From positions 64,001 to 128,000 of IMG/VR virus record IMGVR_UViG_3300023176_005537: a stretch of 64,000 nt of DNA; one strand, 5' to 3'. This document shows positions 1,663-45,716 of this stretch, one piece after another. The translations under genes were made by a program, and so were the position numbers. The stretch is from a virus. The notes beneath the pieces were generated by a model that did not search any database, had not been told where the DNA came from, and saw nothing but the letters and a program-made list of their open reading frames with translations. Positions within the stretch are counted from its first letter, which is position 1. Each line of letters starts with the position of its first letter.

Positions 1663-1663
1663 A

Positions 1664-6671: not shown

Positions 6672-6684
6672 GTAGGAAAGTAAA

Positions 6685-8878: not shown

Positions 8879-8880
8879 AT

Positions 8881-10676: not shown

Positions 10677-10679
10677 TAT

Positions 10680-23727: not shown

Positions 23728-23738
23728 GGAAACAAAAA

Positions 23739-25553
23739 ATGGCTTTTAAAAATAAAAGACCACCAATTGACTACACAGCAAGAGATTTTCAATCAATTAG
23801 AGAAGCTTTAGTTGACCACGCAAGAAGATATTATCCAGATACTTTTCAGGATTTCGACACTTCTGGTTTCGGCTCTTTGATGATTGATACAGTTTCTTAT
23901 ATTGGTGACACTCTTTCTTTCTTTTTGGATTACCAAGCGAATGAAACGTTCTTGGAAACAGCTTTGGAAGAAGAAAGCATTCTTAAAATTGGAAAGCAAA
24001 TGGGTTATCGCTATTCTGCTTCTGGGGTCTCCACTGGGTTGGTTGAAATTTATGTTGAAATTCCAGCAAATACAGATGGAACTCCAAATACAAACTATCT
24101 TCCGATTGTCAAGAAAGGCTCCACCTTTGCGTCTGTCGATGGCGGTGTTTTTACTCTAACTGATGATGTTAACTTCAATGATACAAACGCAGATATTCTT
24201 CTTTCCAAGGTTGATGAGACAACTGGTGTTCCAACTTTTTATGTTCTAAGAAAAGCCGGCGAAGTCGTCTCGGGGACGGAACAGTCTGAGGCGGCTCTGA
24301 TTGAAGGCTTTGAGGCGTTCAATAAAATTGAAGTTGGGGAAAATGTTGAAGGTGAAATAATTGAAATCATCTCAGTTTTTGACACCGAGGGGAATGAGTA
24401 TTTTGAGGTTGATTCTCTTTCACAAGATATTATTTACAAAGCATTTTCAAATAAAGATACATCTACAAACAGCATGGTTCCAAACATTTTAAAGCCATTG
24501 GTTGTACCCAGAAGATTTACGGTTGAAAGAACATCCACTGGTCAGGTATTTTTACAATTTGGAGGCGGAAGTGAATCGGATACGTTGAATGATCAGATTT
24601 CTGATCCTTCTTCTGTTGCTCTTCAACAAAGAGGAAAGAATTACATTTCTTCAACTTATTTTGATCCAAATGTTTTGTCTTATCATGATAAGTTGGGAAT
24701 TGGACCATCAAACACCACACTGGATATTACTTACCTTGTGAACAACGAAGTTCTTTCAAACGCCTCTGTTGGAGCAGTAAATCAAGTTTTGTCTACCACT
24801 TTGGAGTTTAATGACGAAGAAACGTTGGACGAAACAAAAGTTTCAGATGTTCGCGGCGGGGTCGAGGTGGACAACGAAAAAGCAATCTCAGGTGACGTTT
24901 CAGCGCCTACAGCAGATGAATTAAGGCAGCGAGTTATTGGCTCCTTTTCAACTCAGAACAGAGCGGTAACAAGAGAAGATTATATCTATCTTTCTTATTT
25001 AATGCCGGCTTCTTTGGGTGCTGTGAAAAGAGCAAATGCAGTGAGAGACTCAGACTCTCAAAAAAGAAATTTAAACTTATACATCTTATCAGAAGATACA
25101 GAAGGCAATTTTTCAACAGCCTCTTCTGTTTTGAAAAACAATCTTCGCACTTGGTTGTCCAGATACAAAATGATCAATGACACTGTTGATGTTTTTGATG
25201 CGAAGATTATAAACTTGGGTATTAATTTTTCTGTATTGGCAGAGGAAGACACAAACAAATTTGATGTTTTACAGCTTTGCATCGACAAATTAACAGAAGA
25301 TTTAACCGAAAGAAAGTTCGATATTGGAGAAAATTTCAATATTATTGAAGTATACAAGAGCTTAAAAGAGTTGGAAGAAGTGGTAGACGTTTTAGATGTT
25401 GAAATTGTCTCAAAGTTTGGCTCTCCTTACACTGACTTATTCTTAAGCATTGATGAGGCTCTCACTTCTGACGGTAGGGTGGTGGTTTGTCCTGATAATG
25501 CTGTTTTTGAAATTAAATTCCCTGAATCTGATATTAAAGGAACTGTGAAGTAA
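23739..25553 (+). CDS. Baseplate wedge subunit, T4 gp6 / baseplate-J-like
   Basis: DYTARDFQSIR..L, ANETFLETA, QNRAVTREDY motifs. Confidence 0.88.
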   Translation: MAFKNKRPPIDYTARDFQSIREALVDHARRYYPDTFQDFDTSGFGSLMIDTVSYIGDTLSFFLDYQANETFLETALEEESILKIGKQMGYRYSASGVSTGLVEIYVEIPANTDGTPNTNYLPIVKKGSTFASVDGGVFTLTDDVNFNDTNADILLSKVDETTGVPTFYVLRKAGEVVSGTEQSEAALIEGFEAFNKIEVGENVEGEIIEIISVFDTEGNEYFEVDSLSQDIIYKAFSNKDTSTNSMVPNILKPLVVPRRFTVERTSTGQVFLQFGGGSESDTLNDQISDPSSVALQQRGKNYISSTYFDPNVLSYHDKLGIGPSNTTLDITYLVNNEVLSNASVGAVNQVLSTTLEFNDEETLDETKVSDVRGGVEVDNEKAISGDVSAPTADELRQRVIGSFSTQNRAVTREDYIYLSYLMPASLGAVKRANAVRDSDSQKRNLNLYILSEDTEGNFSTASSVLKNNLRTWLSRYKMINDTVDVFDAKIINLGINFSVLAEEDTNKFDVLQLCIDKLTEDLTERKFDIGENFNIIEVYKSLKELEEVVDVLDVEIVSKFGSPYTDLFLSIDEALTSDGRVVVCPDNAVFEIKFPESDIKGTVK

Positions 25554-27118
25554 TGGCCATTAAAAGATATTTAGCAGATGCCGACAATACAATTACAAAT
25601 GCTTTTGATTCAAGCTTGATTTTAGCTAATAGGGGCACTGTCTCTAACATGGGTAGAGCCGACATTCTTGAAGTTTTTTCAATTTATGATCAAATTTCAG
25701 GCTCAGATTTTGGAGAAAGTCAAGAATTATCAAGAGTTTTGGTTAACTTCCCTATCACAACTGTTTCGGCAGACAGAACAGCAGGAAAAATTCCAGCAGC
25801 CGGCTCTGTTTCTTTTTATCTTCGTATGTTTAACGCAGAGCACTCTGAAACTCTTCCAAGAGACTATAAAATGACCATTCAAGCGGTTTCTAGATCTTGG
25901 GAAGAGGGTGAAGGTTTGGATATGGATAACTATACAGACCAAACTTACAACAAATTGGAAGGTTCAAACTGGATTTCTGCTTCTCTGGGAACTGCTTGGA
26001 CTTCTGTTGGTGGCGATTATCACGCTTCGCCTTCTTACACTGCTTCTTTTGGCAGAAAAGGAACAGAAAACATTGAAGTTGACATTACAAGTTTAGTAGA
26101 ACAGTGGCTAGATGGGACAAAAACAAACTATGGAGTTGGGGTAAGATTAAGTTCTTCTTATGAAGCTTACTATTCCTCCTCAACTGGGCAGAACTCAAGT
26201 TCTTTTATACATAATACGGATGGCGCTCAAAGATCTTACTACACAAAAAAGTTTTTTGCAAGAGAGTCCGAATTCTTTTATAGAAGGCCAATCCTTGAAG
26301 CAAGGTGGGACTCCAGAATTGAAGATGATCGCAATTATTTCTTTTATTCGTCTTCGCTAGCACCTGCTGCTGACAACCTTAATACGATCTACCTCTACAA
26401 CTACGTTAGAGGGCGCTTGGCAAATATTCCATCTGTTGGCCAAGGAGCCATTCTTGTCAGTCTTTATTCAGGCTCTTCCAATGACACTGCCCCGTCTGGT
26501 TCAAAATTATTGCTTCCAGCGGGCGGAGGAGTGGTTTCTACGAATGATCTCAATGTAACTGGGGGCTGGGTATCAACTGGGATTTATAGTGCCTCATTCG
26601 CCGTTACAGCAGCCTCTACGCCTGTCGCCACTTTGTATGATGTTTGGCACTCTGGCGGGGTGGAGTTCAAAACAGGGTCAATTTCACCTCAAACCTTTGA
26701 TGCGCTTGGCTACAACGACAATAGAAAATACGTTATCAATGTTACCAATCTTAAAAAGTCATATGATACATCAGAAACTGGAAAATTTAGACTTTTTGTT
26801 CGTGAAAAAAACTGGAACCCAAATATTTATACTAGAGCGGTTGCCGCCCAATCAACTTTACCGATTGTTAGTGCCTCTTACAAAGTGATAAGAGTAGCAG
26901 ACAACTATGAGGTTATTGGTCACGGCACCGGCTCCACTACAAATCACACTCTTATGTCCTATGATTCAGAAGGCAACTACTTTGACTTGGACATGTCAAT
27001 GTTAGAACCCGGATATATGTACGGTTTAAAATTTGCCTTTTACAATGATGCTGTTGGTGATTACCAAGAGCAAAAAGGCATCTTCAAATTTAGAGTAGAA
27101 GAAGACAATAATGAGTAA
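25553..27118 (+). CDS. Ser-rich virion structural protein (DNRLRE-like beta-sandwich)
   Basis: SRVLVNF, SWEEG, EVDIT.LVEQWL.G..NYG...L and RP.LEARW motifs. Confidence 0.6.
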   Translation: MAIKRYLADADNTITNAFDSSLILANRGTVSNMGRADILEVFSIYDQISGSDFGESQELSRVLVNFPITTVSADRTAGKIPAAGSVSFYLRMFNAEHSETLPRDYKMTIQAVSRSWEEGEGLDMDNYTDQTYNKLEGSNWISASLGTAWTSVGGDYHASPSYTASFGRKGTENIEVDITSLVEQWLDGTKTNYGVGVRLSSSYEAYYSSSTGQNSSSFIHNTDGAQRSYYTKKFFARESEFFYRRPILEARWDSRIEDDRNYFFYSSSLAPAADNLNTIYLYNYVRGRLANIPSVGQGAILVSLYSGSSNDTAPSGSKLLLPAGGGVVSTNDLNVTGGWVSTGIYSASFAVTAASTPVATLYDVWHSGGVEFKTGSISPQTFDALGYNDNRKYVINVTNLKKSYDTSETGKFRLFVREKNWNPNIYTRAVAAQSTLPIVSASYKVIRVADNYEVIGHGTGSTTNHTLMSYDSEGNYFDLDMSMLEPGYMYGLKFAFYNDAVGDYQEQKGIFKFRVEEDNNE

Positions 27119-30100
27119 AAAAGACCTTTTCAAAAAACAAAATCCAAATAAGTTCATTTCGTCTGCCAATTATGACAAATTGAAAGAAGAAGTGGAATCC
27201 AAAGACTTCATCAAAGAAAAGATTAAAACTCAAAAATCTTTCACACCAAGAACGGACTTTTCAAAGCCAGAAAACTTTGCTAGGTATGGGTTGGCAGAAG
27301 AATATTATCGAACTTCTGTTGAATATATCTACAATTCTTATCCTTATGATGGTTCTCTGTACGAAAGAGAAGATTGGTACAACAGGGGAACTTATTTAGA
27401 TCAATACATTTTTGAAAATCTCTATCCTAGAACAAACGGATACGTTGTCTTGGGTGATGGCTGGGGTACGCAAGACGCTACTGTAGGTGATTATTCTTTA
27501 TCAACACAGTCAGAATACATTGGATTTACCGGCGGGCCGCATTTGGGCTTTGACCCTGACGGTGATCGAGCAAAATCCAAAGCAAACTTGTTTAAAGCGT
27601 CAAAAAACAGAGAAAACAACCTTAAATTAGACCTTGAAGATGGCGTAACTGTTGAATTTTGGTTGAAAAAAGGTGCTTTTAACAACGCTTTGACCAAAAA
27701 AGAAGTGCTTTTTGATCTTTGGAACAACAATTTGTCGTCCTCTGCGGACTATGGAAGGCTCACAATCGAGCTTTCAGCCTCCGCAGTACCGTCTGATCCC
27801 GTCTTTTTGGTCACTTGCCAGTCCGGAACAGTCGGATATTTCCAAGAAGAGATTGGAAATTTAACAACAGCGGCCATTGCAGACGACAATTGGCACCATT
27901 ACGCTGTTTCTTTTGCTTCTGCATCCAGCGGTGTCAGTACAAAGTTTTATAGAGATGGCCAGTACGTCGAAGAGAAGGTTTTAGGAACAGCATTTAGCGA
28001 TGCAACAGCCGCAAAGATGTCTGCTAACATTGGTGCTCTTGTCAATGCGCCTTCTGGTAATGTTTATCACGGCGAAGAGATGCTTGGCTACGGTAAAGTT
28101 CTTTCTTCTTCGTTTGACGAGTTCCGATATTGGAAAACAGAAAGAAATGCAAAGCAAATTTTCCAAAACTACAACAATCAAGTTGGTGGCGGGACAAACA
28201 CTGATGACGCAAACACGCTCCTAGGGGTCTATTTTAAGTTTAACGAGGGTGTGACAGGTACAGACACGGATAAGACCGTTTTGGACTATTCTGGGCGTGT
28301 TTCCAACGGTTCTTGGACAGGATATGAAGCAGGCGATCGCAACGTTGGCTCTGCAATCGTTTCAGCAAGCGCATCTTCGTACGAATACAAAGATCCAATC
28401 ATCTATTCTTTCCACCCTGATGTTTCGACTTTGAAGTCAAACTTGGAAAATAGCGGCTCGGTTCACGACAACCTAAACACATCAGCCCTTTTCTTCTCGC
28501 TTCCTTCTTGGATTATTGAAGAAGATGAGTCTTATGGTGGAGAGAACCTTCGTCATTTAACTCAAATAATGGGAAGCTATCTGGATACACTTTATCTTCA
28601 AATTGAAGAGTTGAAAGACATTAAGTCTGTTGAATATACTTCCGGCTCTGTCAAGCCTCTTCCGTTTGGGGACAGGCTTCTTTCTGACAAAGGTATGTTG
28701 GTTCCGGAACTGTTCGTTGATATGGATATTGTCGAACAGCTTTACAACAGAAACGAAAAAACAGATTATCAAACTGATCTAACAAAGATCAAAAACAAGA
28801 TCTACGAAAACCTTTACAATAACTTAACTCACATCTACAAGTCCAAAGGGACTTATGACTCTTTTAGAAATACCCTGAATAGTCTTGGCATCTCACAAAA
28901 GATTGTGGATATTAATCTCTACTCGAACAACGCACAGTACGAGATTTTAGACAATACAAAGTTGATTATGGACAACAAAAAGAAAATCAACTTTAAAGAT
29001 CCAGACAACAACTCGGCAACCATTCATCAGTTTAGTTCATCGGCAGAGCCAAGCAAATCATTTATTTCAGGCTCTGGGGTTGGTAAATATTACTACACCC
29101 CGATTACAATTGATTCTTGTTTGACGCTACCTTCTGATAAGATTGGAGCAAACTTTTATTATCAAGCGATAACAAATTCTTACTTGACTTGTTCTTTGTT
29201 TGGCTTTCACGATGTTGACGAAACACAGGCCGAGACAGATTTAACTTGGTTGGCAAGTGATCAAAATCAAGTTCAAGCACACGCTATTAGACCAACTTTG
29301 AAGACACCAGATGGTTATTTCTTGTTGACTGGTTCAGTTGGTGGTGCAAATATTGAATTAACCAGCAGCACTGTGAAAGATCTTTTCACAAATACAAACT
29401 GGAACGTGTCAGTTCGCTTTAAACATATCAATTACCCTCTGACACAAAGGGTGTCGGGCGCTTTTGATGTTGACGCAGATGCTTATCTCTTGGAGTTTTC
29501 CGGCTATAATGCTTCAACAAACTACATTGAAAATGAATTTAAAGTAACAGCATCAGTAAGCGAAGTACAAGGCCTTCTTTTTTCCGAAGCATCAAAAAGA
29601 CTTTATGTTGGAGCACACAGAGAGAACTTTACTGGCTCTGTTTATCAAAACGGATACTCTTTTGCGAAGATTTCAAATATCAATTTCTGGTATAACTACC
29701 TTTCTGATAATGACTTGAAATCTCATTTAAGAGATCTTCACAATTACGGGATAACGAACAGCGAAAGAGACGCTTATCTCTTGGATTCAAACTATCCAAC
29801 GAAAGTTAAGAACATTGATACTTTGATGTTGCGTTGGGATTTTGAGACCGTAACAGGTTCAGACTCCTCCGGAAACTTTACTGTAAATGATCTTGGAAAC
29901 TTCCAAGGAGATACAGAAAATCAGTATTACCACAGTGGAAAAGGCTTTGGTTTCGAAGCATCTTCTACAGATGTTGTTAAGAAAGAAAAGGTTGCAACCT
30001 ACAAGTTAGCACCTTATGATACAGTATCTTCCAATGAGATGATTTCCATCTTGTCGCAAGACGATGATGTGTTTTCTTTGGATAAAAGACCCATCAACTA

Positions 30101-33100
30101 TTACTTTGCAGCAGAAAAAAGCTTTTACAAAGCAGTTGATGATCGTATTTTGGAATACTTCTCGACCTTGAAAGACTTCAACAACTTGGTTGGTGAAACT
30201 GCAAACAGATATAGGCCAGAATATAAACAATTGAAGAAGTATAGGCAATATTTCTTCAACAAAGTCCAGAACGAATTGGACTTTGAAAGATTTTTAGATT
30301 ACTACAAGTGGGTTGATACCAGTATTGCAATGGTGATCGAGCAATTGATCCCTGCGACTGCCGAGTTTTCAAGCACAGTTTGGAATGTTATTGAAAGTCA
30401 CGTTTTGGAAAGAAACAAGTTCCAACATAAACTGCCTGTAATCAAGCCACAGACTGTTTATGAGACGACAATACAAGCTGCGCCAAACTCTTATCCTTTT
30501 TCAACAAAAGGCAACAAGGCGTTGAACTTGCAAAATGCTAATCCGCTGACTGCTAGTTCATTTTTGTCTGCATCTGTGGGGGCTCAATCAACGTTTTTCC
30601 TTTCGGGAACGGTGAAGAACATTGCGAGCATAAACACCAACAATGTAAACAGAAAACTTTATATCTCTGGCTCGGATCAATTGAATACAATTGGCGTTCC
30701 TAGAACCCTCCTGAAAGACCAAAAAGGAAGTGTCGCTTCTGATGGTTTCCATTCGGTAATGATCACAGAGATCAAAGGAAACGACGATTACTTCCTAGAT
30801 CCTTTTGCTTCCGTTGTTACAACAACGGACTCCATTCAAATCTCCGGAGTTGTTGATTATACTTTGCCAACAAGACTATCGCAGCCCCAGTTTATAAGAA
30901 CTAGATTTGCTGCTCCCGGCGGTTATGAAGTAACTTCCTTGGGTTATTTGGATTTTGAGACAAGTCAATACTCTGTCTATAACAATATGAACTATAGAAA
31001 CGCTATTGTTCGCAAAGCTTTGGATGAGATTTACAGTGCGCCAGATGATGATCCAACAATCTTGGCAAATCCCGAAGATGGTTCTTACTTTTTGGGTGTC
31101 TATCGCAACCCAAGAAAAGAATACGTCACATCAGCAGCCGGATTTGTAACGCAATCTTTCTTTGATAATGGATTTGTTCAATACCCCATCCCAGCGTCTG
31201 ATTTGCAGTATGATTGGATTGAAAAAAGCTACTCTTCTTCAAACTTGGAGTTTCTTTTGAACCAGACTGGTTCGGAAGAGATTACATTCAAGCCGGAAAC
31301 TTTCTTTTCTTGGGTTGCAAGTCCCGGTTCGGCAACAAACATTTATGGAGCAGAGGTTAATTCTAACACAAACACATCAACAGTGGTACTAGAAACGCCT
31401 TCTGCCAGTAACAACTATTTTAGTTCTATTGGAAAGTTTGGTTACAACACTTGGCTTCAGACTAGAAATGGTGATAGTTTAGTTGTACGGACACACAAAA
31501 AGAATAATACATTATCTGTTGATGATAGACTTCCGATTTTGCAGTTGGAAAACTCCAATGGTCAGAGAGTTGTTGAAAAAGGTTTGGTTGCCAATTCGTT
31601 CACAAATTATACCGAGCCCCTAGTGATCAAAAAGTACAAACCAATTCGTCACGTCTTTGTTTTGAACACAGAGGCAGAAGAATTTATTGAAGTTCAAAGT
31701 TCGTATGCCGGAAAGTTGGCTTCATTCTCTAACCGAGAATTGAATGCGAAGTTCAATTTAGACAATGTGAAAGTTGATACTGGATATGAAAAAGTAAAAC
31801 AACTTTATCTTAACAATGCAAAGATTGATGGAAACCCAATCAAAGGATGGACTTCTGTCGAATATTCAGAAAGAGTTTGGCCAAAAGAAAAGTTTGAAGG
31901 CGTGAGTTCTCACAGAGATAAGCCAAACTATGATTCAACCAGTGAGCAATTGCTAGACATTTTGGGAACTGCTAATACATTCTGGCAAAAAGAGGGTGAG
32001 CAAACCATAAGAAAACGTGGCGGTCGTTTGGATGCTGAAGTGCGAAAAGCACCAGTTTATACTAATGCTAAAAACTCAATGGGTCATAAATCAATTTATT
32101 CTGAAAATGTGTTTCCATTGTCAGATTATGCGGTTACACCGGAAGAAGATCGCTACTTCGATGGCGAAGAGTTCTATATAGCATCTGCAAACGCTGGAAC
32201 TTCAGGACTGGGCGGGTTACCGGCTACATTCACTGTTGGTGATAAAGTAACTTTTACCATTAATGAAACAGCATACGAATTAACAGCGTCAGCAACAGAT
32301 AATGATGGTTATAATAGTTGGTTTAGGCATACAGAGTATGGTCAAAGTTTACAATATTTGGCAAATACGATCAACCAACACCCGATCGTTTCGCAACACG
32401 TTCTTGCTGGGCATCTGATTATTAGCTCTTCTTCGCCGGCAGACTCTCATAAGTTGGGTCTTTATTTGACCACCCCCAATGGAGGCAACAATATCTCTGT
32501 CGAGGTTAGCTCCAGCGAGGAGGGTGCTTGGGTAGAGACGTCTGGCCCTAATGTTCGCACTGTCTATTCAAAAGAAGATGGAGAGTTAAACTCTTCTTTT
32601 TATGCTTTCTATACTCCTGTGAAGTATAAAGAAAATTATTTTTATCAAACAAAAGAATTTGGACACGCTGCTCCTTTGAACAACCGTGGCTTTAAAAACG
32701 AAGGTATTTTTGGCTCTGGGCGAGCAATGAAAAACGCACAATACCTTGTGGACTTTGGATTAGACGAGTTAGCAGTCGCGGGTATTACAATTACAGCGTC
32801 TGTTTCCTCTTCTTTGTTTGCCGATGGCATCTATAATCACTACTTGCCAACTGCATCTTTATCTTATGTTAATAAGGTTAAATCGCCGGTTGGAACGGGC
32901 TCGGTTTATCAGTTGAGGGAGATTACTCCCTACCACGGGCACACATACAGAGTGCCTGCTTTGAGTGAGAGAGAGCCTTTCTTTGCTTCTTTTGCAGAGT
33001 ATAATGAGAGTATTAAGTTTCTCACGGATGACTACGCTATTGTACCAGAATTCAACATTTCAGAGCATATGCCTTACTATGTTGATCAGAAAGGTGCAAA

Positions 33101-35567: not shown

Positions 35568-36619
35568 TGGAATTTTTTGATAAAAAAGAAGAAGTTATGG
35601 AAATTCAATTAACTTCCTATGGTCGTCAATTACTTTCCAAAGGAATGATGAAACCAGCTTATTATGCTTTTTTTGATGATGGAATTATGTATGATGGTGC
35701 GAAAGGTGGCTTAACAGAAGTTCAAAACGATGTTCAATATCGTGTTAAAAACGAAACAATCTTTATGAAAGATGTTGACGATTATGAACAAGCAGATCGT
35801 TTTGCAAAAAATCCCATTCTTATTCCAGATGAATTTGAAAAAAACGTTTTGCCACTTATGGATTTCAACTCAACGTTTGAAAACCAACTTGGGGCATCTA
35901 GAAATACAAATAACAACGCCCCTGCTTGGGCTGTTTCTTGTTTTTCAGCAGAGATTACAGGATCTAACAATTTCCTAACAGCATCAGCAGAAAGCAGAGA
36001 CATTCCAATCCCGCAGATCAATATTGATCGAGAAAGCATTCAATATGAAGTTAGACCAAGTTCTGAAAACGTTGATCAATTTAATGAATTGGAGCCTTGC
36101 GAGAGAGAGGAAAGTGCTTTCTTTAATTCAGAGGTTGTTTTTGGAGATGGAACAACTTTGGAAATCAAAGAAGGCAAGATTTTATTGAAGGTGGAGGAGA
36201 AAAACACCCTCTCTTTGAAAGATAACTTTGAAATTGAAGTGTTTGAAGTTGTTGATTTGAAAGAAACTCCTGTATCTGCGACAAATACTGAATTTTTAGT
36301 ACCATTAAAGTTTCTCAAAGAAGAAAAACAAATTCAAAACAATCTTTTGGTTGAACCTGATACGGAAATTCTAGATTCATTAGACAAAGTTAACAATGGA
36401 TTTGTTTCTTATTATTTAGATATATCATATGATGCAGACGTTGATGAGGTTTTGGTTTGTAAAAACGAAGAAAAAGACGACACAACACTTTTCTTTAAAA
36501 ATCCAATCAACTGTGAGGAAGTAATTTCTCGACAAGGAGCAGAGTCTGTTTATGATAACAACCTAGGAGAAGGCGGAATTGATTTGTTTATTTCAACGTT
36601 GGACGAGGAGTGTGAATAA
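35567..36619 (+). CDS. Putative baseplate-associated structural protein
   Basis: N-terminus LTSYGRQLLSKG...YAFFDD.I.YD is paralogous to that of 42431-43357. Confidence 0.55.
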   Translation: MEFFDKKEEVMEIQLTSYGRQLLSKGMMKPAYYAFFDDGIMYDGAKGGLTEVQNDVQYRVKNETIFMKDVDDYEQADRFAKNPILIPDEFEKNVLPLMDFNSTFENQLGASRNTNNNAPAWAVSCFSAEITGSNNFLTASAESRDIPIPQINIDRESIQYEVRPSSENVDQFNELEPCEREESAFFNSEVVFGDGTTLEIKEGKILLKVEEKNTLSLKDNFEIEVFEVVDLKETPVSATNTEFLVPLKFLKEEKQIQNNLLVEPDTEILDSLDKVNNGFVSYYLDISYDADVDEVLVCKNEEKDDTTLFFKNPINCEEVISRQGAESVYDNNLGEGGIDLFISTLDEECE

Positions 36620-39042: not shown

Positions 39043-39044
39043 AA

Positions 39045-42000
39045 ATGGCTGATACAAAAATTACTAATATTTGCCAAGAAGAGTCCGACTTTTTCTTGGA
39101 TTTGTCTCCAACCGGCCCGAGCACTTTCTTGCCATTTACACTGGTTGAATCACAGCCGAATATTATAAAAGGCAAGAACCTTCGTTCAAAGCATTTGAGA
39201 ATTATTTCCAAAGACATTTATTTTGGTTCTTTGGGTAGCAGTGTTGATATCTTTCGCTCTTCGGAATATGGATTTGGTGGATTTGACACCTCTAGAGATA
39301 ACGGTACACTCTCTTTAAGAAAGAGGACAGCACCCAGTCAGGTAGAGTTTTATACGCTTGAAATTAATAAAAATACTATATCATATGATGTTCCCTCGAC
39401 TGCGGAAGGTAAGGCTCTCCTAGACTTTGAAAAATACGTTAAAGGAAAAGAATTTGTTTATTTGAACTTTGTTTTAGATGTGCCTTTCTCTCAAGAGGAG
39501 GTGAGACAAAACCAAATCTCTTCTGGAAGACCAGACCATCAATCAGGGTTTGTTGACAATGATCCTAGGATTTCTACTTTTCAATCTGAATTTGTTTATA
39601 ACCTTTATTTGAGAGATTATGAAAAGCTGATCGAAAGAACAAATCAAGAAGAATGGATTATTCCAAATGCACATATGTTTTCTTTCTTGAAGGAAAGTTT
39701 GACAGATCAAGATGTTAAAAACTTTGATAAAGAATATTTGGAACTTATGTCGTATGGCGGGAATGAGGACGAACTGAAAGGTAGAATGACTGCCAAAAAC
39801 TTTAGCTTTCAAGAATATCAAAATGGTTATCTTCCGGCAAAAGAAAATTACTTTAAAAGTGCTCCACAAACTACAAAAAACAAAGCAAAAAACTATGTTG
39901 TAACCCAAGATGATGTTATTGAATATAATCAATTGGCAGAACAATATAGAGGTGGTGCAAACTTTGGTTTCTATTTGGAGTTTCCATATGAACCCCCAAC
40001 TCTTACTGGGAAAGAAGATGATCTGGATGACTTTAAAAACCTTTTCAAAAAAACAAACACTGATTTAAATTTGTATGACTTGGTGATCAAAACTGATAAA
40101 GATTTGCCGGCCAGAACTGCTTTTGGCATTCCTCCGGGGCAGTCTATCGATCAGGAAGTGTCCGATTTTATCAATAATGCAAACCCTTCAAGCTTCGAGT
40201 ATATTTCTCAACTTTCTTTTGTTGAGTTCGGAAATTTAGGGAAAGCAAAATTACCTTTAGATTTCTCCTTGGATAAAACGAAGTATAAAACTTGGGATTT
40301 GACAGAGTTTTTCTTAAAATATGGCAAGATAGTCAATAAAGTTCAAAACAATGCTGTATTATCCGATATCTTAAACATCTCTTCCAATGAAGATGTCACT
40401 GTTCTAGGTGAGTCAAGCGAAGCGATACAAAAATATCAAACAAATCCAACATACAGCTTTTTTCAAAAACTTATGACAGAGACGGCAAATATAGGTTTCA
40501 GTAATTTGGTCAATAAAAACAGCTTAACAGCAAAGCAGTGCTTTATTGACTCTAGCGAGACCCCTCACGAAATTTTGTTTTATAAGATCACTAAAAAAGA
40601 TCGAAATGGTAATCAACTTCAAACATTTATATTACCATCACCGGCAGAAGAAAGCAAAACAAGAAGAAAGTTGTTGAACTTTTTCGATGCACAAGTTAAG
40701 TATGATAAACAATACGAGTACGAGATCAATGCTTATCCTCTTGTATTAGCAAAGAAGTATTCTTATCTAGATAGTAATATAATTCAAACAACGGACGAAT
40801 TGAGATTTAGTATATTTTTTAAGTTTATGAGTTATTTTGTAATTGATTTTATTAAGACTATGAAATTTAAGATTGTAGTTGTAGGTAAAAAATTAAAATA
40901 TGATTTTAAAGTTATTTCACAAGTTATAAAAGATTACATCAATAACTTTCCCAAGAAATCAAAAATGGCGTTCCAAAATGCAAAATCCAAGATTATCTTT
41001 TTTGAAATTTTGGCAGATATTCAATTGGATTTTGACAATTTGTTAAAAAAGATAGAAAATTCTTTAGACTTCAGTAAGATTAACTCTGCTAGTAAGATTT
41101 CTGTAACAGAATTAAACACAATCAAGACAGTTGTTGCAAAACATTACTACAATCAGAGTATTTTTAGCTATAGAAAGACAGCAGCTATACCCAGAGACTC
41201 ACAAGTGGGCAAAAAACTGCTCTCTCTTTTGGGAAGTTTTAAATACGATAATAGCCTCGCGCAGCTATTTTTAGACAAGTTCACGCCCGGAGCAATAAAC
41301 CTGCAAGGTGTCAAGCTTAAAACGTCTGAAACGAAGCTTTTGGCGATATCAAAAGATTTTACAAAATTAGAAAAAGAATTATCTTTGTACAAAAATGCGA
41401 ACTTGAATCAAACTACCTTTGATGTTTTAGAGATTAAAGTAGAAGATTACATTGTTCTTATGGAGGTTCCATTATTCTCTATTGAAGGGAGGGTTTTGGA
41501 AAATCCCCCAATCTATCCGGAAGTCAATTTTTCTGGTGTGAAAGGAAAGAACAATCAAATCTTTATTAGTTTGAAAACGCAAACTACAAGAATGTATGAA
41601 AAGCCTATCCCTTTTAATGACATTGAAGAAGATTATTTTAATAATCTGATCAAAAGCAAGGGAACTGATCGGAACGGAAGGTTGCTTTTTAAAACAGACG
41701 ATGAAAATAGAAAGTTCCAAATATTTAGATTGGAAGAAAAGCCAAAGTCCTACAAAGACTTTGATCAAAAAATAAGAAGAGAGATCAATCTTCAAGGAAA
41801 GTATGCCGGAGCAACCTATAAAGACCGCTTGCTTCCAAATAAAAAGTATTATTACACTTTTAGATCGATGGATGTCCACGACAACCTTTCAAATCCATCG
41901 CCGGTTTATGAAGTTGTCGTCAATGATCAAGCTGGGTTTATATTCCCAGAGTTTAAAGTAGTTCAATTGGAAGACAAAGATTACTACCAGTACACACAAT

Positions 42001-42389
42001 CTTTCAGAAAATACTTGGAAATCAAACCAAGCTTCGAAAATACAATCATAGATACAGAAATAACTGACAACTTTAAATCAGCATATGGCTTGGGGCTTGG
42101 AGGTGTTGCGCCTTTGGGTTCTGGAGTGGATAATGCTTGGGGTAAAAAGTTTAAAGTTAGGATTACATCGAAATCAAGTGGTAAAAAGATCGATGTTAAT
42201 TTTGACTTTACAAAGAAATACGTTGGTGATATTGTGACAACCTCTGATGTTGCTGGATATGGAAAGTTGGATGAAGAAGACAGGAAAAACATGGTCACAC
42301 TACCAGAAAGTCAAAGACCACCAACACAAGAGTTAGGACAAACAACAATCCTAGAAGATAGTGACTTCTTTAAACGAAAAGAAGAATAA
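39045..42389 (+). CDS. Hypothetical virion protein with FnIII-like segments
   Basis: D..VKYDKQYEYEI and D.L.PNKKYYY.FRS.D...SNPS patterns. Confidence 0.55.
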   Translation: MADTKITNICQEESDFFLDLSPTGPSTFLPFTLVESQPNIIKGKNLRSKHLRIISKDIYFGSLGSSVDIFRSSEYGFGGFDTSRDNGTLSLRKRTAPSQVEFYTLEINKNTISYDVPSTAEGKALLDFEKYVKGKEFVYLNFVLDVPFSQEEVRQNQISSGRPDHQSGFVDNDPRISTFQSEFVYNLYLRDYEKLIERTNQEEWIIPNAHMFSFLKESLTDQDVKNFDKEYLELMSYGGNEDELKGRMTAKNFSFQEYQNGYLPAKENYFKSAPQTTKNKAKNYVVTQDDVIEYNQLAEQYRGGANFGFYLEFPYEPPTLTGKEDDLDDFKNLFKKTNTDLNLYDLVIKTDKDLPARTAFGIPPGQSIDQEVSDFINNANPSSFEYISQLSFVEFGNLGKAKLPLDFSLDKTKYKTWDLTEFFLKYGKIVNKVQNNAVLSDILNISSNEDVTVLGESSEAIQKYQTNPTYSFFQKLMTETANIGFSNLVNKNSLTAKQCFIDSSETPHEILFYKITKKDRNGNQLQTFILPSPAEESKTRRKLLNFFDAQVKYDKQYEYEINAYPLVLAKKYSYLDSNIIQTTDELRFSIFFKFMSYFVIDFIKTMKFKIVVVGKKLKYDFKVISQVIKDYINNFPKKSKMAFQNAKSKIIFFEILADIQLDFDNLLKKIENSLDFSKINSASKISVTELNTIKTVVAKHYYNQSIFSYRKTAAIPRDSQVGKKLLSLLGSFKYDNSLAQLFLDKFTPGAINLQGVKLKTSETKLLAISKDFTKLEKELSLYKNANLNQTTFDVLEIKVEDYIVLMEVPLFSIEGRVLENPPIYPEVNFSGVKGKNNQIFISLKTQTTRMYEKPIPFNDIEEDYFNNLIKSKGTDRNGRLLFKTDDENRKFQIFRLEEKPKSYKDFDQKIRREINLQGKYAGATYKDRLLPNKKYYYTFRSMDVHDNLSNPSPVYEVVVNDQAGFIFPEFKVVQLEDKDYYQYTQSFRKYLEIKPSFENTIIDTEITDNFKSAYGLGLGGVAPLGSGVDNAWGKKFKVRITSKSSGKKIDVNFDFTKKYVGDIVTTSDVAGYGKLDEEDRKNMVTLPESQRPPTQELGQTTILEDSDFFKRKEE

Positions 42390-42393
42390 AAGA

Positions 42394-42401
42394 CTATTTA
42401 T
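42394..42401 (+). promoter_or_regulatory. Candidate late promoter (CTATTTAT)
   Basis: Same 8-mer in three short intergenic gaps upstream of late-type genes (42394, 51249, 59969). Confidence 0.5.
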
Positions 42402-42430
42402 TTTAAGTTTTATAAATTAGGAGACTAAAA

Positions 42431-43357: not shown

Positions 43358-43373
43358 TTCAAAGGGATAAAAA

Positions 43374-44504
43374 ATGGCTGGTACGACTAAAAAAATTACC
43401 AAAACTCAACCAATTACAACCAAATTAAGGGAATCTATCCCTATTACCGGTTCAATTGTGTCTGGGACATACGCAGAACCGAACGGTGCAGGAACAACCT
43501 CGAACATTAAAGAGTATACTCACGAGATGTTCCAATCTGTTTACGACTATCCTTATGCTTCCTCCTCGGCAAACCATCTTTTTGATTTGACCGCTGGGTA
43601 TAGTACGAATTCCGACTTGGATGGTGTCACTGGAGAGGTGTCTGGCTCCAAAAAGAACAACATTTACAACGAAATGGCACAAGTTCTTGTTGGTTTTGAC
43701 ATCAACAACAACATTCATCGCTTCGATAAAGATGGAGACCTTACTGGTGGTGCAAAGTTTGATGAAGTAATCACAATCAACGTTGCTCGTCTTTTGGCAA
43801 AAGATGGAATTCAGAAAGGAACGTTTGAGTTGGAGCTTGGCGTTTCTGGATCGGACGCTGGGTATGCTGCTCCGTTTACTCAAAGAATTAAGATTAAAGA
43901 CCTTAATGGGACTTCTTCTTACAAAGTAAACTCCCCCAAGGGAGAGTACGGTATTCTTTACGCAAACAACTCCACAGGTACTCCTTTGGATGGTGTTGGT
44001 ATTGATCCAACAGATAAAACTGCTCCTTGTGGTTTGATTTACTACCAAGCCGGCGTGGCAGTCCTTTCTGCTTCGATGTTTATGCCATCTGCCAATGGTG
44101 GGATTATGAGTGCGTCTACCAACAACTTGCTTTGGCTTTCTTCTTCGTCTAGACAAGAAGATATTCACGAGATTTTGACTTCAGGCTCGATTGAAGAAGT
44201 TGCAACTGGACTTCGCAGAAGAATGTACAATATGACATTCAACAACACTACGAACTTGGTTTCAACAATGTACTTCTGCGATATTGAGCCGGAAGATTTC
44301 AACTTCAGTGCCAACCCGACTTACCTGACGGGAAGCAAGATTAGAGTTAAAGGAAACGACCCACAATCTCCTCCCAAGGCTTATATCACCACTGTTGGCC
44401 TTTACAACGGAGCAGATCAGCTTCTTGCAGTTGCAAAACTTTCCAAACCAATTGAAAATAACCCCGCACAAGCCTTGAAAATCAAAGTGCGCCTTGACTA
44501 CTAA
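43374..44504 (+). CDS. Putative baseplate/tail structural protein
   Basis: C-terminal FNFSANPT...YITTVGLYN..QLLAVAKLSKP..KVRLDY. Confidence 0.6.
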   Translation: MAGTTKKITKTQPITTKLRESIPITGSIVSGTYAEPNGAGTTSNIKEYTHEMFQSVYDYPYASSSANHLFDLTAGYSTNSDLDGVTGEVSGSKKNNIYNEMAQVLVGFDINNNIHRFDKDGDLTGGAKFDEVITINVARLLAKDGIQKGTFELELGVSGSDAGYAAPFTQRIKIKDLNGTSSYKVNSPKGEYGILYANNSTGTPLDGVGIDPTDKTAPCGLIYYQAGVAVLSASMFMPSANGGIMSASTNNLLWLSSSSRQEDIHEILTSGSIEEVATGLRRRMYNMTFNNTTNLVSTMYFCDIEPEDFNFSANPTYLTGSKIRVKGNDPQSPPKAYITTVGLYNGADQLLAVAKLSKPIENNPAQALKIKVRLDY

Positions 44505-44523
44505 ATTATTAAGGAGGTAAAAA

Positions 44524-45714
44524 GTGTCTTTGTATAAATTTAACAAGGGCGACACCCTGCTTAATACTTTGGTAGCGAGACCTTCCTATAATTTTTTCAT
44601 TTATCAGAATGATCTCTACCTTAATGAACATGAGCCAATGTCTGGAGCTTACTCGTCTAGCGTTACAAATGTTCCACCGGGCTATGTCAACCTTTATGAA
44701 CTAAACGTCAACCGATCTTCTAGCAATTTAATCTATCCTTTTGTTTATCCTAGGTACGATCAAACATTTGCCTTGTCCAGTTTGCCGACTTCTTCTCAAG
44801 TTCAGCAGATCACAGGTTCTATTTCGGGGTCTTATCCACTTTCTTCGTCGATCAGTTTGTTTTATTTTGCTAGTACTGATGCAACTGTAAAGCACAAGCT
44901 GCTTTCTTTGAAGAATACGATCAATTATTATCGCCCTATGAGCCCACATTTCAACTATTCAGGTCAGATCCCTGCCGGCTCGACCTATAGAACAAGGAAT
45001 TTGGACGAAGAAAACATTAATTTGATCAATATTCCTGCAATTATCACTGGAAATAACATTAAAAAAGGCTCTGTTTCTTTGAAATATTATGTTTCCGGCA
45101 CAATGGTTGCGGAATTGACAGATTACAAGAACGAAAGAGGCGAATTGGTTCAAGTTTCCGGAGCAATTGCAGCAAATGATGGCAAAGTAGCAGGGTTGGT
45201 TCTTTATAATGAAGGATTTATCCTTCTTACGGGGGCTTGGGCTTTGGATACCAGCCACCAAGAAGATTACATTGGCGATGGAAATGACAATCCCAAGTGG
45301 ATTTACTATGGAAGTGCCTTATCAGAGACCTTTACAGGTATCTCAACGCCATCTTCCAGTTATACTTTTGACTTTCAAGCAACAGAAAAGATTCCAAACT
45401 TAACTATGTTAGCTCACGCTAATAGAGGGGAGTTGAATTATTCAAATAATCCAACTTTTATCTCTTCTAGTTCAACGTTGCCGACGATTACAACAGGTTC
45501 TCTTTATTATAAAGAAAACCCAGAAAGAGCAATCAAGAACATTGTGTCTTCTTCTTTCACACAAACCACCGGTTCGTTTGAAAAGATCACTTACATCACC
45601 AAAATTGGTATTTATGATGAATATAAGAACCTGATCGCAGTTGCTAACTTGGCAAACCCTGTTAGAAAAAGAGAAAAAGATTCATTCACATTTAAGTTAA
45701 AAATGGATTTATAA
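44524..45714 (+). CDS. Putative baseplate/tail structural protein, paralog of 43374-44504
   Basis: C-terminal NYSNNPT...YITKIGIYD..NLIAVANLANP..KLKMDL; GTG start after AAGGAGG. Confidence 0.6.
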   Translation: MSLYKFNKGDTLLNTLVARPSYNFFIYQNDLYLNEHEPMSGAYSSSVTNVPPGYVNLYELNVNRSSSNLIYPFVYPRYDQTFALSSLPTSSQVQQITGSISGSYPLSSSISLFYFASTDATVKHKLLSLKNTINYYRPMSPHFNYSGQIPAGSTYRTRNLDEENINLINIPAIITGNNIKKGSVSLKYYVSGTMVAELTDYKNERGELVQVSGAIAANDGKVAGLVLYNEGFILLTGAWALDTSHQEDYIGDGNDNPKWIYYGSALSETFTGISTPSSSYTFDFQATEKIPNLTMLAHANRGELNYSNNPTFISSSSTLPTITTGSLYYKENPERAIKNIVSSSFTQTTGSFEKITYITKIGIYDEYKNLIAVANLANPVRKREKDSFTFKLKMDL

Positions 45715-45716
45715 TG

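What the first reader, a model, noticed from the sequence alone, without database searches (positions are those of the whole stretch)
25553..45714. [ST]-[GAS]-S tripeptide enrichment in specific virion proteins: candidate O-glycosylation sequon
Seen (by-eye counts, approximate): SGS/TGS/SAS/TAS/SSS/TSS occur about 13 times in the 521-aa protein (25553), about 35 times in the 2818-aa protein, and about 10 times each in the 376-aa (43374) and 396-aa (44524) proteins. The neighbouring 1875-, 807- and 1114-aa proteins have only about 1-3 each. The motifs are dispersed rather than tandem and often follow a hydrophobic residue (ISGS, LTGS, VSAS). Inference: a dispersed Ser-ending tripeptide on exposed baseplate proteins, next to a 13-kb glycan locus with seven GTs, looks like the acceptor code of a phage-encoded virion glycosylation system. 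Known: some mycobacteriophages glycosylate their virions with their own GTs.
Basis: partly seen in the sequence, partly recalled or inferred. Interest (0 to 1): 0.82.

Follow-up and report, generated by a model that had tools for sequence, protein, structure and literature searches.

The report
Ser-ending tripeptide tag on phage tail proteins
The outer tail and baseplate proteins of this marine phage and its relatives carry the tripeptide Ser/Thr-(Gly/Ala/Ser)-Ser three to five times more often than chance; it is probably an attachment signal for the phage's own sugar-adding enzymes, but no chemistry shows this yet.

Summary
The four proteins carry 13, 37, 11 and 12 [ST][GAS]S triplets. That is 73 in total against 16 expected from composition, and 22 expected after shuffling within 10-residue windows (z above 11). 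In a scan of all tripeptides, SSS, TGS, SAS and SGS are the four most enriched. The motif is sharply defined: variants that change any one of the three positions are not enriched. It is usually preceded by a hydrophobic residue, and its codons vary.

Genome-wide, only these four proteins reach p below 1e-4; the tail sheath and a neck protein are mildly enriched. The same enrichment recurs in the orthologues of Flavobacterium phage immuto, Microcystis phage Mel-JY01, 80 IMG/VR relatives and a complete 191-kb relative. It also recurs in unrelated folds and in orphan fibres. T4 and cyanophage S-RIM2 show none.

All these phages keep a virus-specific pair of GT4 glycosyltransferases. The glycan locus here is entirely soluble.

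Best reading (about 0.45): a Ser-specific O-glycosylation acceptor motif on the tail exterior. A structural role is not excluded, and no modification has been shown. The scan has reported analogous but different motifs on other phage DNA.

The parts
382..1662 (+). GT4 glycosyltransferase no. 1, clade-conserved; candidate initiating protein O-glycosyltransferase
   Evidence: Matches Pfam Glyco_trans_1_4 and Glycos_transf_1. The best PDB match is the chlorovirus NY-2A glycosyltransferase B736L (3oy2, E 3.8e-7). Homologues in the phage collection occur essentially only in immuto, Mel-JY01, LR756508 and RM378. It is present in 16 of 20 long IMG/VR relatives, including 4 of 4 complete ones, at 51-66% identity. 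The nearest Atlas clusters are 87-100% viral.
1857..3128 (+). GT4 glycosyltransferase no. 2, a distant paralogue of no. 1; adjacent to it in window, immuto and G004 (RM378 by position only)
   Evidence: Matches Pfam Glycos_transf_1. It shares the E-x7-E segment with no. 1. Its homologue in G004 is 51% identical. A gene of similar size directly follows GT4 no. 1 in immuto (annotated as a glycosyltransferase) and in RM378 (annotated as hypothetical; homology not tested).
3964..5587 (+). Two further glycosyltransferases: Glyco_trans_1_2 at 3964-4866 and GT2 at 4859-5587
   Evidence: Pfam matches.
5563..13458 (+). Soluble nucleotide-sugar pathway genes: split transketolase, epimerase/reductases, an RfbH-like 3-dehydrase (7481-8878), a 4,6-dehydratase, a third Glyco_trans_1_2 glycosyltransferase (10680-11582), a GDP-fucose-synthase-like protein and GDP-mannose 4,6-dehydratase
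   Evidence: Pfam matches. In NCBIfam, RfbH scores 474 bits, above its cut-off of 423. None of the 14 ORFs has a segment that looks transmembrane.
23344..25553 (+). gp25-like and gp6-like inner baseplate wedge proteins. They are not enriched and serve as the synteny anchor.
   Evidence: Pfam GPW_gp25 and PHROG baseplate wedge families. The gp6-like protein has 2 motifs against 1.8 expected.
25553..27118 (+). Family A (521 aa), an outer baseplate protein with 13 motifs against 3.2 expected
   Evidence: Counts. In the AF2 model, residues 1-253 form a jelly-roll resembling a chondroitin-sulfate-binding CBM (8wab_B, Z 16.9), and residues 390-521 are Ig-like. Across 120 homologues there are 1743 motifs against 412 expected, with eight sites conserved in at least 88% of sequences.
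27111..35567 (+). Family B (2818 aa), a giant baseplate or fibre protein with 37 motifs against 9.0 expected
   Evidence: Counts. It has no internal repeats, and the motifs are spread over residues 200-2600. Orthologues are enriched in immuto, Mel-JY01, G004 and 61 IMG/VR loci, where O/E is 3.16.
43374..44504 (+). Family C paralogue 1 (376 aa), with 11 motifs against 1.5 expected
   Evidence: Counts. Across 120 homologues there are 928 motifs against 255 expected. Sites are conserved by alignment column while SAS, SSS, SGS, TGS and TAS interchange at them. The AF2 model has pLDDT 72 and no clear match to a known fold.
44524..45714 (+). Family C paralogue 2 (396 aa), with 12 motifs against 2.2 expected
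   Evidence: Counts. It is paralogous to 43374-44504 and to the Mel-JY01 and immuto modules of about 350 aa.
17724..23351 (+). 1875-aa protein upstream of gp25. It is not enriched (3 vs 2.1) and serves as an internal control.
36619..42389 (+). 807-aa and 1114-aa proteins. They are not enriched (2 vs 1.7 and 1 vs 1.9), and their function is unknown.
   Evidence: The G004 homologue of the 1114-aa protein has 0 motifs against 1.7 expected.

Best explanation
Hydrophobic-[Ser/Thr]-[Gly/Ala/Ser]-Ser is a protein-level tag that selection maintains on the exterior parts of the tail in this phage lineage. The tagged parts are the peripheral baseplate proteins A, B and C, the outer domains of the sheath, a neck protein and lineage-specific fibres. 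Its most likely role is as the acceptor motif for cytoplasmic O-glycosylation of a Ser. I propose that the two clade-conserved, virus-specific GT4 enzymes (382-1662 and 1857-3128) start this modification. The variable remainder of the soluble glycan locus would extend it with deoxy-sugars (GDP-mannose 4,6-dehydratase, an RfbH-like 3-dehydrase, a GDP-fucose-synthase-like reductase and further glycosyltransferases), before or during tail assembly.

Shown here: the enrichment, its sharp definition, its restriction to outer tail proteins, its recurrence in unrelated folds and in distant relatives, its absence from two outgroup phages, the conservation of the GT4 pair, and the lack of export machinery.

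Inferred only: that any sugar is attached, which Ser is the acceptor, which enzyme reads the motif, and what the coat does.
For: 1. Size and robustness. There are 73 motifs against 16-22 expected under global and local shuffles, with z of 11.6-14.3. The four member tripeptides are the top four of all tripeptides.

2. Definition like an enzyme's specificity. OH-small-S is enriched 4.5x. Changing position 1 to Asp/Asn gives 0.75x, and to Ala/Gly 0.72x. Changing position 2 to a polar residue gives 0.58x, and to a hydrophobic one 0.71x. Changing position 3 to Thr, Ala or Gly gives 1.57x, 1.42x and 1.02x. The same profile is seen in Mel-JY01 (3.4x) and immuto (3.0x). With hydrophobic residues on both sides the enrichment is 13x.

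3. Not a DNA motif. All six Ser codons are used in the motif.

4. Target set. In this genome only the four proteins have p below 1e-4. The sheath has 9 vs 2.5 and the neck protein 6 vs 1.9. The other 160 ORFs have 82 vs 69. A complete 191-kb relative shows the same set, and its remaining 129 ORFs have 65 vs 83.5.

5. Independent of fold. The motif occurs in a CBM-like jelly-roll plus Ig-like domain (A), in a model with no clear match to a known fold (C), and in the non-conserved outer part of the sheath. That part has 31 vs 10.7 across three phages (p = 3e-7), mostly at different alignment columns, while the conserved core has 1 vs 1.7. It also occurs in an immuto orphan protein (17 vs 3.0) and a G004 fibre (34 vs 8.8).

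6. Outgroups. Twenty-two T4 structural proteins have 24 vs 25.9. Cyanophage S-RIM2 gave no match to GT4 no. 1 in the phage collection. Its fibre shares the tetrapeptide repeat at 56-61% identity (56% by BLASTP; about 61% by tblastn). It has TG[N/D] where the G004 fibre has periodic TGS, and only 14 vs 9.1 motifs overall. Its sheath has 4 vs 2.3.

7. Enzymes. GT4 no. 1 is kept in every relative tested that is complete, at 52-63% identity in the four complete records, against 40-50% for gp6. RM378 keeps GT4 no. 1 followed by a gene of similar size, without the large locus. The locus has no transmembrane protein. The best solved relative of GT4 no. 1 is a chlorovirus glycosyltransferase.

8. Motifs that other notes of this scan reported for other phage clades are not enriched here, at 0.5-1.1x. 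This argues against a generic tail-protein bias.
Against: No chemical evidence of modification exists for any member of the clade.

Co-occurrence with the GT4 pair is one clade-level event. Four of 20 long relatives lack a match, but all four are incomplete records, so no natural loss-of-GT test was possible.

Several sites are invariant and embedded in hydrophobic, conserved stretches, as a structural element would be.

In family C, motif serines are no better conserved than other serines (0.56 vs 0.66). Only family A shows the expected excess (0.83 vs 0.56, p = 0.004).

In the AF2 models the third Ser lies in coil in 17 of 24 cases, compared with 30 of 47 for other serines, so there is no distinction. 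I could not compute solvent exposure.

The major capsid protein (3 vs 1.8) and the 807- and 1114-aa proteins are not enriched.

Enrichment is weaker in RM378 and LR756508, although both have the GT4 homologue.

In fibres the motif is part of a regular repeat, which could be purely architectural.

The glycan locus could instead serve DNA or another cytoplasmic acceptor. The searches for hydroxymethylase and TET were negative, but the record is 86% complete and the TET control did not ring.
Confidence: 0.45

Rival explanations
1. The motif is an intrinsic structural or assembly element. On this view the tripeptide is a favoured way for this lineage's tail proteins to end a beta-strand or make a tight loop or subunit contact. 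It would be inherited within families A, B and C and re-used in fibre repeats, with no enzyme reading it.
For: Many sites are conserved by alignment column over 50-98% identity and are flanked by conserved hydrophobic residues, for example Y-L-[ST]-[GAS]-S-K and A-V-x-[TS]-[AGS]-S-x-F. The interchanges S/T and G/A/S are ordinary conservative substitutions. In the models the motifs sit at strand ends, loops and helix starts. In fibres the motif recurs with the period of the repeat. Family C motif serines are not better conserved than other serines.
Against: The motif is enriched in unrelated folds and in non-conserved sheath domains, mostly at non-homologous positions. The classic turn or cap equivalents with Asp/Asn at position 1 are depleted (0.75x), and Thr at position 3 is barely enriched (1.57x), which is unusual for a beta-structure preference. 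Gly, Ala and Ser interchange at position 2, so a Gly-specific turn is excluded. T4 and S-RIM2 tail proteins show no enrichment, including a homologous repeat fibre.
Confidence: 0.28
2. The motif is read in trans, but not by the glycosyltransferases. It could mark sites for another Ser modification (phosphorylation, acylation, nucleotidylation) or be a recognition element for a tail-assembly chaperone. The glycan locus would then serve another cytoplasmic acceptor such as DNA.
For: The properties that point to a trans-acting reader are a sharp definition, independence of fold and restriction to one clade. Phage glycosyltransferase clusters are known to hypermodify DNA (10.1101/2023.12.21.572611; PMC13326640, listed).
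Against: No thymidylate-synthase-like hydroxymethylase was found in the 157-kb record. The TET search was uninformative. I identified no conserved kinase or acyltransferase candidate, but I made no dedicated search. The GT4 pair is the only modifying-enzyme candidate that I showed to track the clade.
Confidence: 0.14
3. The enrichment is an artefact of composition or chance: Ser-, Thr- and Gly-rich fibrous proteins produce such triplets by themselves, and the reader picked the pattern after seeing it.
For: The four proteins are richer in Ser, Thr, Gly and Ala than their neighbours. The motif was chosen by eye. This scan has flagged many different 'sequons' in tail proteins of other phages.
Against: The excess survives global and 10-aa local shuffles with z above 11. 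The four tripeptides come out on top of an unbiased scan. The reverse or permuted classes GSS, SSG, SGT and TSS are not enriched. The pattern replicates in independent genomes.
Confidence: 0.01

Closest known systems
Virion O-glycosylation of mycobacteriophages (Che8, Rita) by phage-encoded glycosyltransferases (Freeman et al. 2023, pmid 37329881, as cited and summarised in PMC11256854 and PMC12582341)
   Same: Both involve phage-encoded soluble glycosyltransferases. A glycan coat on virion proteins is made in the cytoplasm without export machinery, which is shown there and proposed here.
   Different: In that system the glycans are reported on major capsid proteins (PMC11256854). Here the capsid protein is not enriched and the candidates are tail-exterior proteins. 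The hosts are Actinobacteria there, against Bacteroidota or cyanobacteria for this clade. A dispersed, defined tripeptide motif is not part of that system as far as I know (my own knowledge; the paper itself is not held). Nothing here is shown chemically.
GtfA/GtfB O-GlcNAcylation of serine-rich-repeat adhesins (and SdgA/SdgB on Ser-Asp repeats) in Gram-positive bacteria
   Same: Both have a pair of adjacent GT4-type proteins acting in the cytoplasm. The acceptor serines are separated by a small residue (S-A-S, S-x-S). Variable glycosyltransferases extend the glycan (established knowledge).
   Different: Those substrates are long tandem repeats, whereas here the sites are dispersed in folded domains. 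No DUF1975-type domain was found in the phage enzymes. The similarity to SdgA is only the generic GT4 core (E 3.6e-4, 19 bits against a cut-off of 800).
Chlorovirus-encoded glycosylation of the capsid protein; putative glycosyltransferase B736L of PBCV NY-2A (PDB 3oy2)
   Same: Both have a virus-encoded GT4. B736L is the best solved-structure match of GT4 no. 1 (E 3.8e-7). In both, the virus carries its own glycan machinery, independent of host export pathways (PMC9614988).
   Different: That virus infects a eukaryotic alga and uses N-linked glycans on atypical sites of the capsid protein. The sequence similarity is limited to the C-terminal GT-B half (residues 193-317).
Autotransporter heptosyltransferases (TibC/AAH) acting on TibA and AIDA-I
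   Same: Both involve cytoplasmic O-glycosylation of many serines in beta-rich surface proteins.
   Different: The enzyme family differs (heptosyltransferase), and no such domain was found in the locus. The sugar and the substrates also differ.
General O-glycosylation of Bacteroidota, sequon D-[ST]-[AILVMT]
   Same: The likely host phylum of part of this clade is the same, and that system has a three-residue O-glycosylation sequon.
   Different: That system is periplasmic and depends on a lipid carrier. Its sequon is not enriched in the four proteins (10 vs 14.0).

Membership tests
Phage-encoded virion glycosylation (Che8 type) | The phage genome encodes glycosyltransferases. | tested here: met
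   Five Pfam glycosyltransferase domains lie within 382-11582.
Phage-encoded virion glycosylation (Che8 type) | Glycans are covalently attached to virion proteins, shown by mass spectrometry or staining. | not testable with these tools
   There are no proteomic or chemical data for this uncultured phage or its cultured relatives.
Phage-encoded virion glycosylation (Che8 type) | The major capsid protein is a target. | tested here: inconclusive
   The capsid protein has 3 motifs against 1.8 expected. Absence of the motif does not prove absence of glycosylation.
GtfA/GtfB-type SRRP glycosylation | Two adjacent GT4-like proteins. | tested here: met
   The genes at 382-1662 and 1857-3128 both match GT4 families. 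A second gene directly follows GT4 no. 1 in immuto, RM378 and G004; homology to GT4 no. 2 was shown only for G004.
GtfA/GtfB-type SRRP glycosylation | A DUF1975-type N-terminal domain in the enzymes. | tested here: not met
   Pfam matched only the C-terminal GT1 and GT4 domains.
GtfA/GtfB-type SRRP glycosylation | The substrate is a long tandem Ser-rich repeat region. | tested here: not met
   The motifs are dispersed, and the 2818-aa protein has no internal repeats.
Bacteroidota general O-glycosylation | The sequon D-[ST]-[AILVMT] on the targets. | tested here: not met
   10 observed against 14.0 expected in the four proteins.
Bacteroidota general O-glycosylation | Assembly on a lipid carrier with a flippase and an oligosaccharyltransferase. 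| tested here: not met
   None of the 14 locus ORFs has a segment that looks transmembrane.
N-glycosylation (N-x-S/T) | Enrichment of N-x-[ST]. | tested here: not met
   42 observed against 50.2 expected.
Phage DNA glycosyl-hypermodification | A pathway that makes hydroxymethyl-pyrimidine (thymidylate-synthase-like hydroxymethylase, or methyltransferase plus TET). | tested here: inconclusive
   PF00303 gave no match and its control rang. PF12851 gave no match, but its control rang nowhere. The record is 86% complete.
Autotransporter heptosyltransferase (TibC/AAH) system | A heptosyltransferase-family enzyme. | tested here: not met
   No such Pfam family appeared among the hits for the locus proteins.

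The most novel reading that the evidence does not exclude
A very abundant lineage of marine and freshwater myoviruses (more than 5000 homologues of each target family in metagenomes) coats the outside of its tail with phage-made deoxy-sugar glycans. The coated parts are the sheath surface, the neck, the peripheral baseplate and the fibres. A virus-specific GT4 pair would read a defined, Ser-specific sequon, hydrophobic-[ST]-[GAS]-S. This would be the first sequence-defined O-glycosylation sequon for tailed-phage virions. Together with the different motifs noted in other clades, it would point to clade-specific 'glycan codes' on phage tails.
Probability: 0.4. Interest if true: 0.85.

Novelty: new variant of a known kind. 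Interest (0 to 1): 0.64.

Why it matters
If the motif is a glycosylation sequon, glycan attachment sites on phage tails could be predicted from sequence alone. Virion glycosylation would then extend from a few mycobacteriophages to a globally abundant aquatic phage lineage. It would also give a concrete function to the large glycosyltransferase islands common in big phages, which have no explanation so far. A sugar coat on the sheath, baseplate and fibres would bear on adsorption, particle stability, decoy avoidance and recognition by host or grazer lectins. The hypothesis can be tested directly, because two clade members are in culture: Flavobacterium phage immuto and Microcystis phage Mel-JY01. 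If the motif turns out to be structural, it is still a clade-specific, sharply defined sequence rule spanning unrelated folds, which would itself need an explanation.

Tried and rejected
- DNA-level motif: rejected, because the motif codons are as varied as the background.
- Local-composition artefact: rejected by 10- and 20-aa window shuffles.
- Internal repeats in the 2818-aa protein: none found.
- Generic Asx/ST-turn or Gly-turn explanation: rejected by the class tests and by G/A/S interchange at conserved sites.
- Pfam and PHROG annotation of families A, B and C: no hits.
- Fold of family C: Foldseek found no match at E of 0.001 or better. The best VIA-wide hit is Z 5.8 to a phi812 baseplate chain, too weak to name.
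- T4-type late promoter TATAAATA as a test of co-expression: 5 matches against 3.1 expected, which is uninformative. By eye, the intergenic regions did not settle when the locus is expressed.
- A natural relative lacking the GT4 pair: none found. The four long contigs without a match are incomplete.
- Depletion of the motif in gp6 of 80 IMG/VR relatives (47 vs 129): I do not rely on it. Those sequences are closely related to each other, and the three distant gp6 proteins show no depletion.
- Literature: searches found no report of a sequon or of tail glycosylation for this clade. Freeman et al. 2023 is not held.
- Not run: complex prediction for the GT4 pair was judged not decisive. A third homologue search, the profile search and read mapping were left unused.

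Full report
**Context.** The window is part of a 156,945-bp IMG/VR virus record (window = bases 64001-128000). An earlier follow-up described it as an uncultured marine or salt-marsh phage. All genes discussed lie on the + strand.
- Bases 382-13458 hold a glycan locus:
  - two GT4 enzymes;
  - two Glyco_trans_1_2 proteins and one GT2;
  - a split transketolase and several epimerase/reductases;
  - an RfbH-like 3-dehydrase that scores above its NCBIfam cut-off;
  - a 4,6-dehydratase, a GDP-fucose-synthase-like protein and GDP-mannose 4,6-dehydratase.
- None of its 14 ORFs has a segment that looks transmembrane.
- Downstream come a gp25-like and a gp6-like baseplate wedge protein. Then follow the proteins of the finding, and after them a resolvase, a primase, an SbcCD fusion, the terminase and the portal.
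- The closest cultured relatives are distant, at about 29% identity in gp6. They are Flavobacterium phage immuto, Microcystis phage Mel-JY01, the 484-kb uncultured phage LR756508 and, more remotely, Rhodothermus phage RM378.

**The observation.**
- Exact counts of [ST][GAS]S are 13, 37, 11 and 12 in the 521-, 2818-, 376- and 396-aa proteins. The 1875-, 807- and 1114-aa neighbours have 3, 2 and 1.
- Pooled, there are 73 motifs against 15.9 expected from whole-protein shuffles, 19.7 from 20-aa windows and 22.0 from 10-aa windows (z = 14.3, 12.4, 11.6).
- An unbiased scan of all tripeptides ranks SSS, TGS, SAS and SGS first to fourth. Nothing else comes close, and these tripeptides are not enriched in the other 16.6 thousand residues of the window.
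- The signal is directional: TGS occurs 14 times and SGT 4 times, GSS once and SSG twice.
- The codons within the motif are as varied as the background, so this is a protein-level signal.
- The preceding residue is hydrophobic in 62% of cases against a background of 33% (p = 5e-7) and almost never charged. The following residue is hydrophobic in 49%.
- The extended pattern hydrophobic-[ST]-[GAS]-S-hydrophobic occurs 23 times against 1.7 expected.

**How sharply the motif is defined.** The table gives observed/expected ratios for class variants in the four proteins.

| Variant | Observed/expected |
|---|---|
| [ST]-[GAS]-S (the motif) | 4.5x |
| Asp/Asn at position 1 | 0.75x |
| Ala/Gly at position 1 | 0.72x |
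| Polar residue at position 2 | 0.58x |
| Hydrophobic residue at position 2 | 0.71x |
| Thr at position 3 | 1.57x |
| Ala at position 3 | 1.42x |
| Gly at position 3 | 1.02x |
| T-S-S | 1.3x |

The same profile is found independently in the orthologous proteins of Mel-JY01 (3.4x) and immuto (3.0x). The Bacteroidota sequon D-[ST]-[AILVMT] (0.72x) and N-x-[ST] (0.84x) are not enriched.

**Which proteins carry it.**
- Across the whole 157-kb genome only the four proteins reach p below 1e-4.
- The tail sheath (9 vs 2.5) and a neck/adaptor-like protein (6 vs 1.9) are mildly enriched. The major capsid protein is not (3 vs 1.8).
- The other 160 ORFs have 82 motifs against 69 expected.
- BLAST groups the four proteins into three families:
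  - A is the 521-aa protein directly after gp6.
  - B is the giant protein.
  - C is a paralogous module of about 350 aa, present twice here and several times in Mel-JY01 and immuto.
- Families A and C each have more than 5000 metagenomic homologues, many from marine samples.

**Comparative evidence.**
- The orthologues are enriched in immuto (A 7 vs 1.4; B 10 vs 4.5; C 5 vs 1.7 and 7 vs 2.2).
- They are also enriched in Mel-JY01 (A 6 vs 1.3; B 18 vs 5.6; C-type proteins 9 vs 2.6, 9 vs 2.2, 11 vs 1.9 and 8 vs 1.9).
- In 80 IMG/VR loci found with a gp6 alignment, A has O/E 3.71 (797 vs 215) and B 3.16 (1671 vs 529). The 262 other ORFs have 1.02.
- Across 120 homologues each, family A has 1743 motifs against 412 expected and family C 928 against 255.
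- Many sites are fixed by alignment column while the tripeptide changes within the class. At one family C site the counts are SAS 30, SSS 27, SGS 24, TGS 18 and TAS 11, and the third Ser is invariant in 120 of 120 sequences.
- A complete 191-kb relative (G004) shows the same target set genome-wide, including the sheath (13 vs 4.9), the neck protein (5 vs 1.5) and a 1381-aa fibre (34 vs 8.8). Its remaining 129 ORFs have 65 vs 83.5.
- Enrichment is weaker in RM378 (two proteins at 8 vs 1.75 and 6 vs 1.2) and in LR756508 (orthologues together 12 vs 4.5).

**Is it a property of a fold?** The evidence says no.
- Family A is modelled as a jelly-roll resembling a chondroitin-sulfate-binding CBM (8wab_B: Z 16.9, rmsd 3.0 over 170 residues) and an alginate-binding CBM (7vbo_A: Z 13.5). 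It also has an Ig-like C-terminal domain.
- Family C has no clear match to a known fold.
- In the sheaths of three phages, 31 motifs against 10.7 expected lie in the variable N-terminal and middle part (p = 3e-7), mostly at different alignment columns. The conserved C-terminal 300 residues have 1 against 1.7. By analogy with T4 gp18 (my own knowledge), the variable part forms the outer surface of the sheath.
- An immuto orphan protein with no relatives outside immuto carries 17 motifs against 3.0 expected.

**Outgroups.**
- Twenty-two T4 structural proteins have 24 motifs against 25.9 expected.
- The G004 fibre is built of tetrapeptide (N/D)-(V/L)-T-G repeats. These are related to gp5-type beta-helix spikes and to a 1912-aa structural protein of cyanophage S-RIM2 (about 61% identity by tblastn, 56% by BLASTP).
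- S-RIM2 gave no match to GT4 no. 1 in the phage-collection search. Its fibre reads T-G-(N/D) where the G004 fibre periodically reads T-G-S, and it has only 14 motifs against 9.1 expected.
- The S-RIM2 sheath (4 vs 2.3) and its 2403-aa protein (11 vs 8.6) are at baseline.
- The motifs that other follow-ups of this scan reported in other phage clades (S-[GA]-x-T, [ST]-G-x-[ST], S-G-[VIL], D-x-S) are not enriched here, at 0.5-1.1x.

**The enzymes.**
- Significant homologues of GT4 no. 1 in the phage collection occur in the same phages that share gp6 and family C, apart from three weak partial matches.
- It is present in 16 of 20 long IMG/VR relatives, including all four complete ones, at 51-66% identity. 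Gp6 in these relatives is 40-50% identical.
- Its nearest Atlas clusters are 87-100% viral. Its best solved relative is the chlorovirus glycosyltransferase B736L.
- A second gene of similar size directly follows it in immuto (annotated as a glycosyltransferase), in RM378 (hypothetical; not compared here) and in G004 (51% identical to GT4 no. 2). The rest of the glycan locus differs between phages, and RM378 lacks it.
- The locus has no membrane protein, so a lipid-linked, exported glycan is unlikely. This is an inference.
- No thymidylate-synthase-like hydroxymethylase was found. The TET search was uninformative.

**What remains against the sequon reading.**
- Nothing shows that a sugar is attached.
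- The link to the GT4 pair is one clade-level co-occurrence.
- Several sites are invariant and lie in hydrophobic, conserved stretches.
- Motif serines are better conserved than other serines in family A (0.83 vs 0.56, p = 0.004) but not in family C (0.56 vs 0.66).
- In the two AF2 models (pLDDT 72 and 68), 17 of 24 motif serines lie in coil, 4 in strands and 3 at helix starts. This is no different from other serines. I could not compute exposure.
- The capsid protein and the 807- and 1114-aa proteins lack the motif.
- In fibres the motif follows the repeat period.

**Verdict.** The most likely explanation (about 0.45) is an acceptor motif for Ser O-glycosylation of the tail exterior by the phage's soluble glycosyltransferase system, with the conserved GT4 pair as the candidate readers. 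The rivals are a purely structural or assembly role (about 0.28), another trans-acting reader (about 0.14) and artefact (about 0.01). The remainder is unassigned. Phage-encoded virion glycosylation is known from mycobacteriophages (PMC11256854, PMC12582341). A dispersed, defined sequon on the tail proteins of aquatic myoviruses would be a new variant of that kind. This scan has reported analogous but different motifs on other phage DNA. I treated those notes as leads only.

Noticed in passing
window 7481-8878, 8881-9831, 11583-13458: The locus combines an RfbH-like 3-dehydrase (above its NCBIfam cut-off) with GDP-mannose 4,6-dehydratase, a second 4,6-dehydratase and a GDP-fucose-synthase-like reductase. 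This looks like a phage-encoded pathway to a 3,6-dideoxy- or 6-deoxy-hexose. The exact sugar was not resolved.
   Followed up: partly
window 5563-6198 and 6195-6671: A split transketolase-like pair (thiamine-diphosphate-binding and pyrimidine-binding halves as separate overlapping ORFs) lies inside the glycan locus. It may serve to make a branched or chain-extended sugar.
   Followed up: no
window 25553-27118 (residues 1-253): The N-terminal domain of the baseplate protein after gp6 is modelled as a jelly-roll. It closely resembles a chondroitin-sulfate-binding CBM (8wab_B, Z 16.9) and an alginate-binding CBM (7vbo_A, Z 13.5). This makes it a candidate host-polysaccharide-binding receptor protein.
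   Followed up: partly
window 48092-51241: SbcD-like nuclease and SbcC-like ATPase are fused in one 1049-aa protein (PHROG 100 matches residues 1-364 and PHROG 77 residues 180-1048). Mel-JY01 has an ORF of similar size at the same place.
   Followed up: no
window 26000-34000 and 42000-46000: The four motif-rich genes have higher GC (0.38-0.41 against 0.32-0.36) and near-zero GC skew compared with their neighbours. This probably follows from their Ser, Thr, Ala and Gly codons, but I did not test it.
   Followed up: no
loci L015-L094 (gp6 homologues): The gp6 homologues of 80 IMG/VR relatives have only 47 motifs against 129 expected (O/E 0.36). This could mean the motif is avoided in an inner baseplate protein. 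However, the sequences are closely related to each other, and the three distant gp6 proteins show no depletion.
   Followed up: partly
G004:C1:72123-76268 (L098), and own genome 138271-138744: A relative carries a 1381-aa fibre between the neck and sheath genes. Its N-terminal module of about 160 aa is duplicated and is homologous to a small gene at the same place in this genome. Its shaft consists of (N/D)(V/L)TG tetrapeptide repeats related to gp5-type beta-helices and to cyanophage fibre proteins.
   Followed up: partly
window 46700-46770: A near-consensus sigma-70-type promoter (TTGACA, 17-bp spacer, TATAAT) lies directly upstream of the primase gene. The glycan locus has only a TATAAT-like box upstream.
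   Followed up: no
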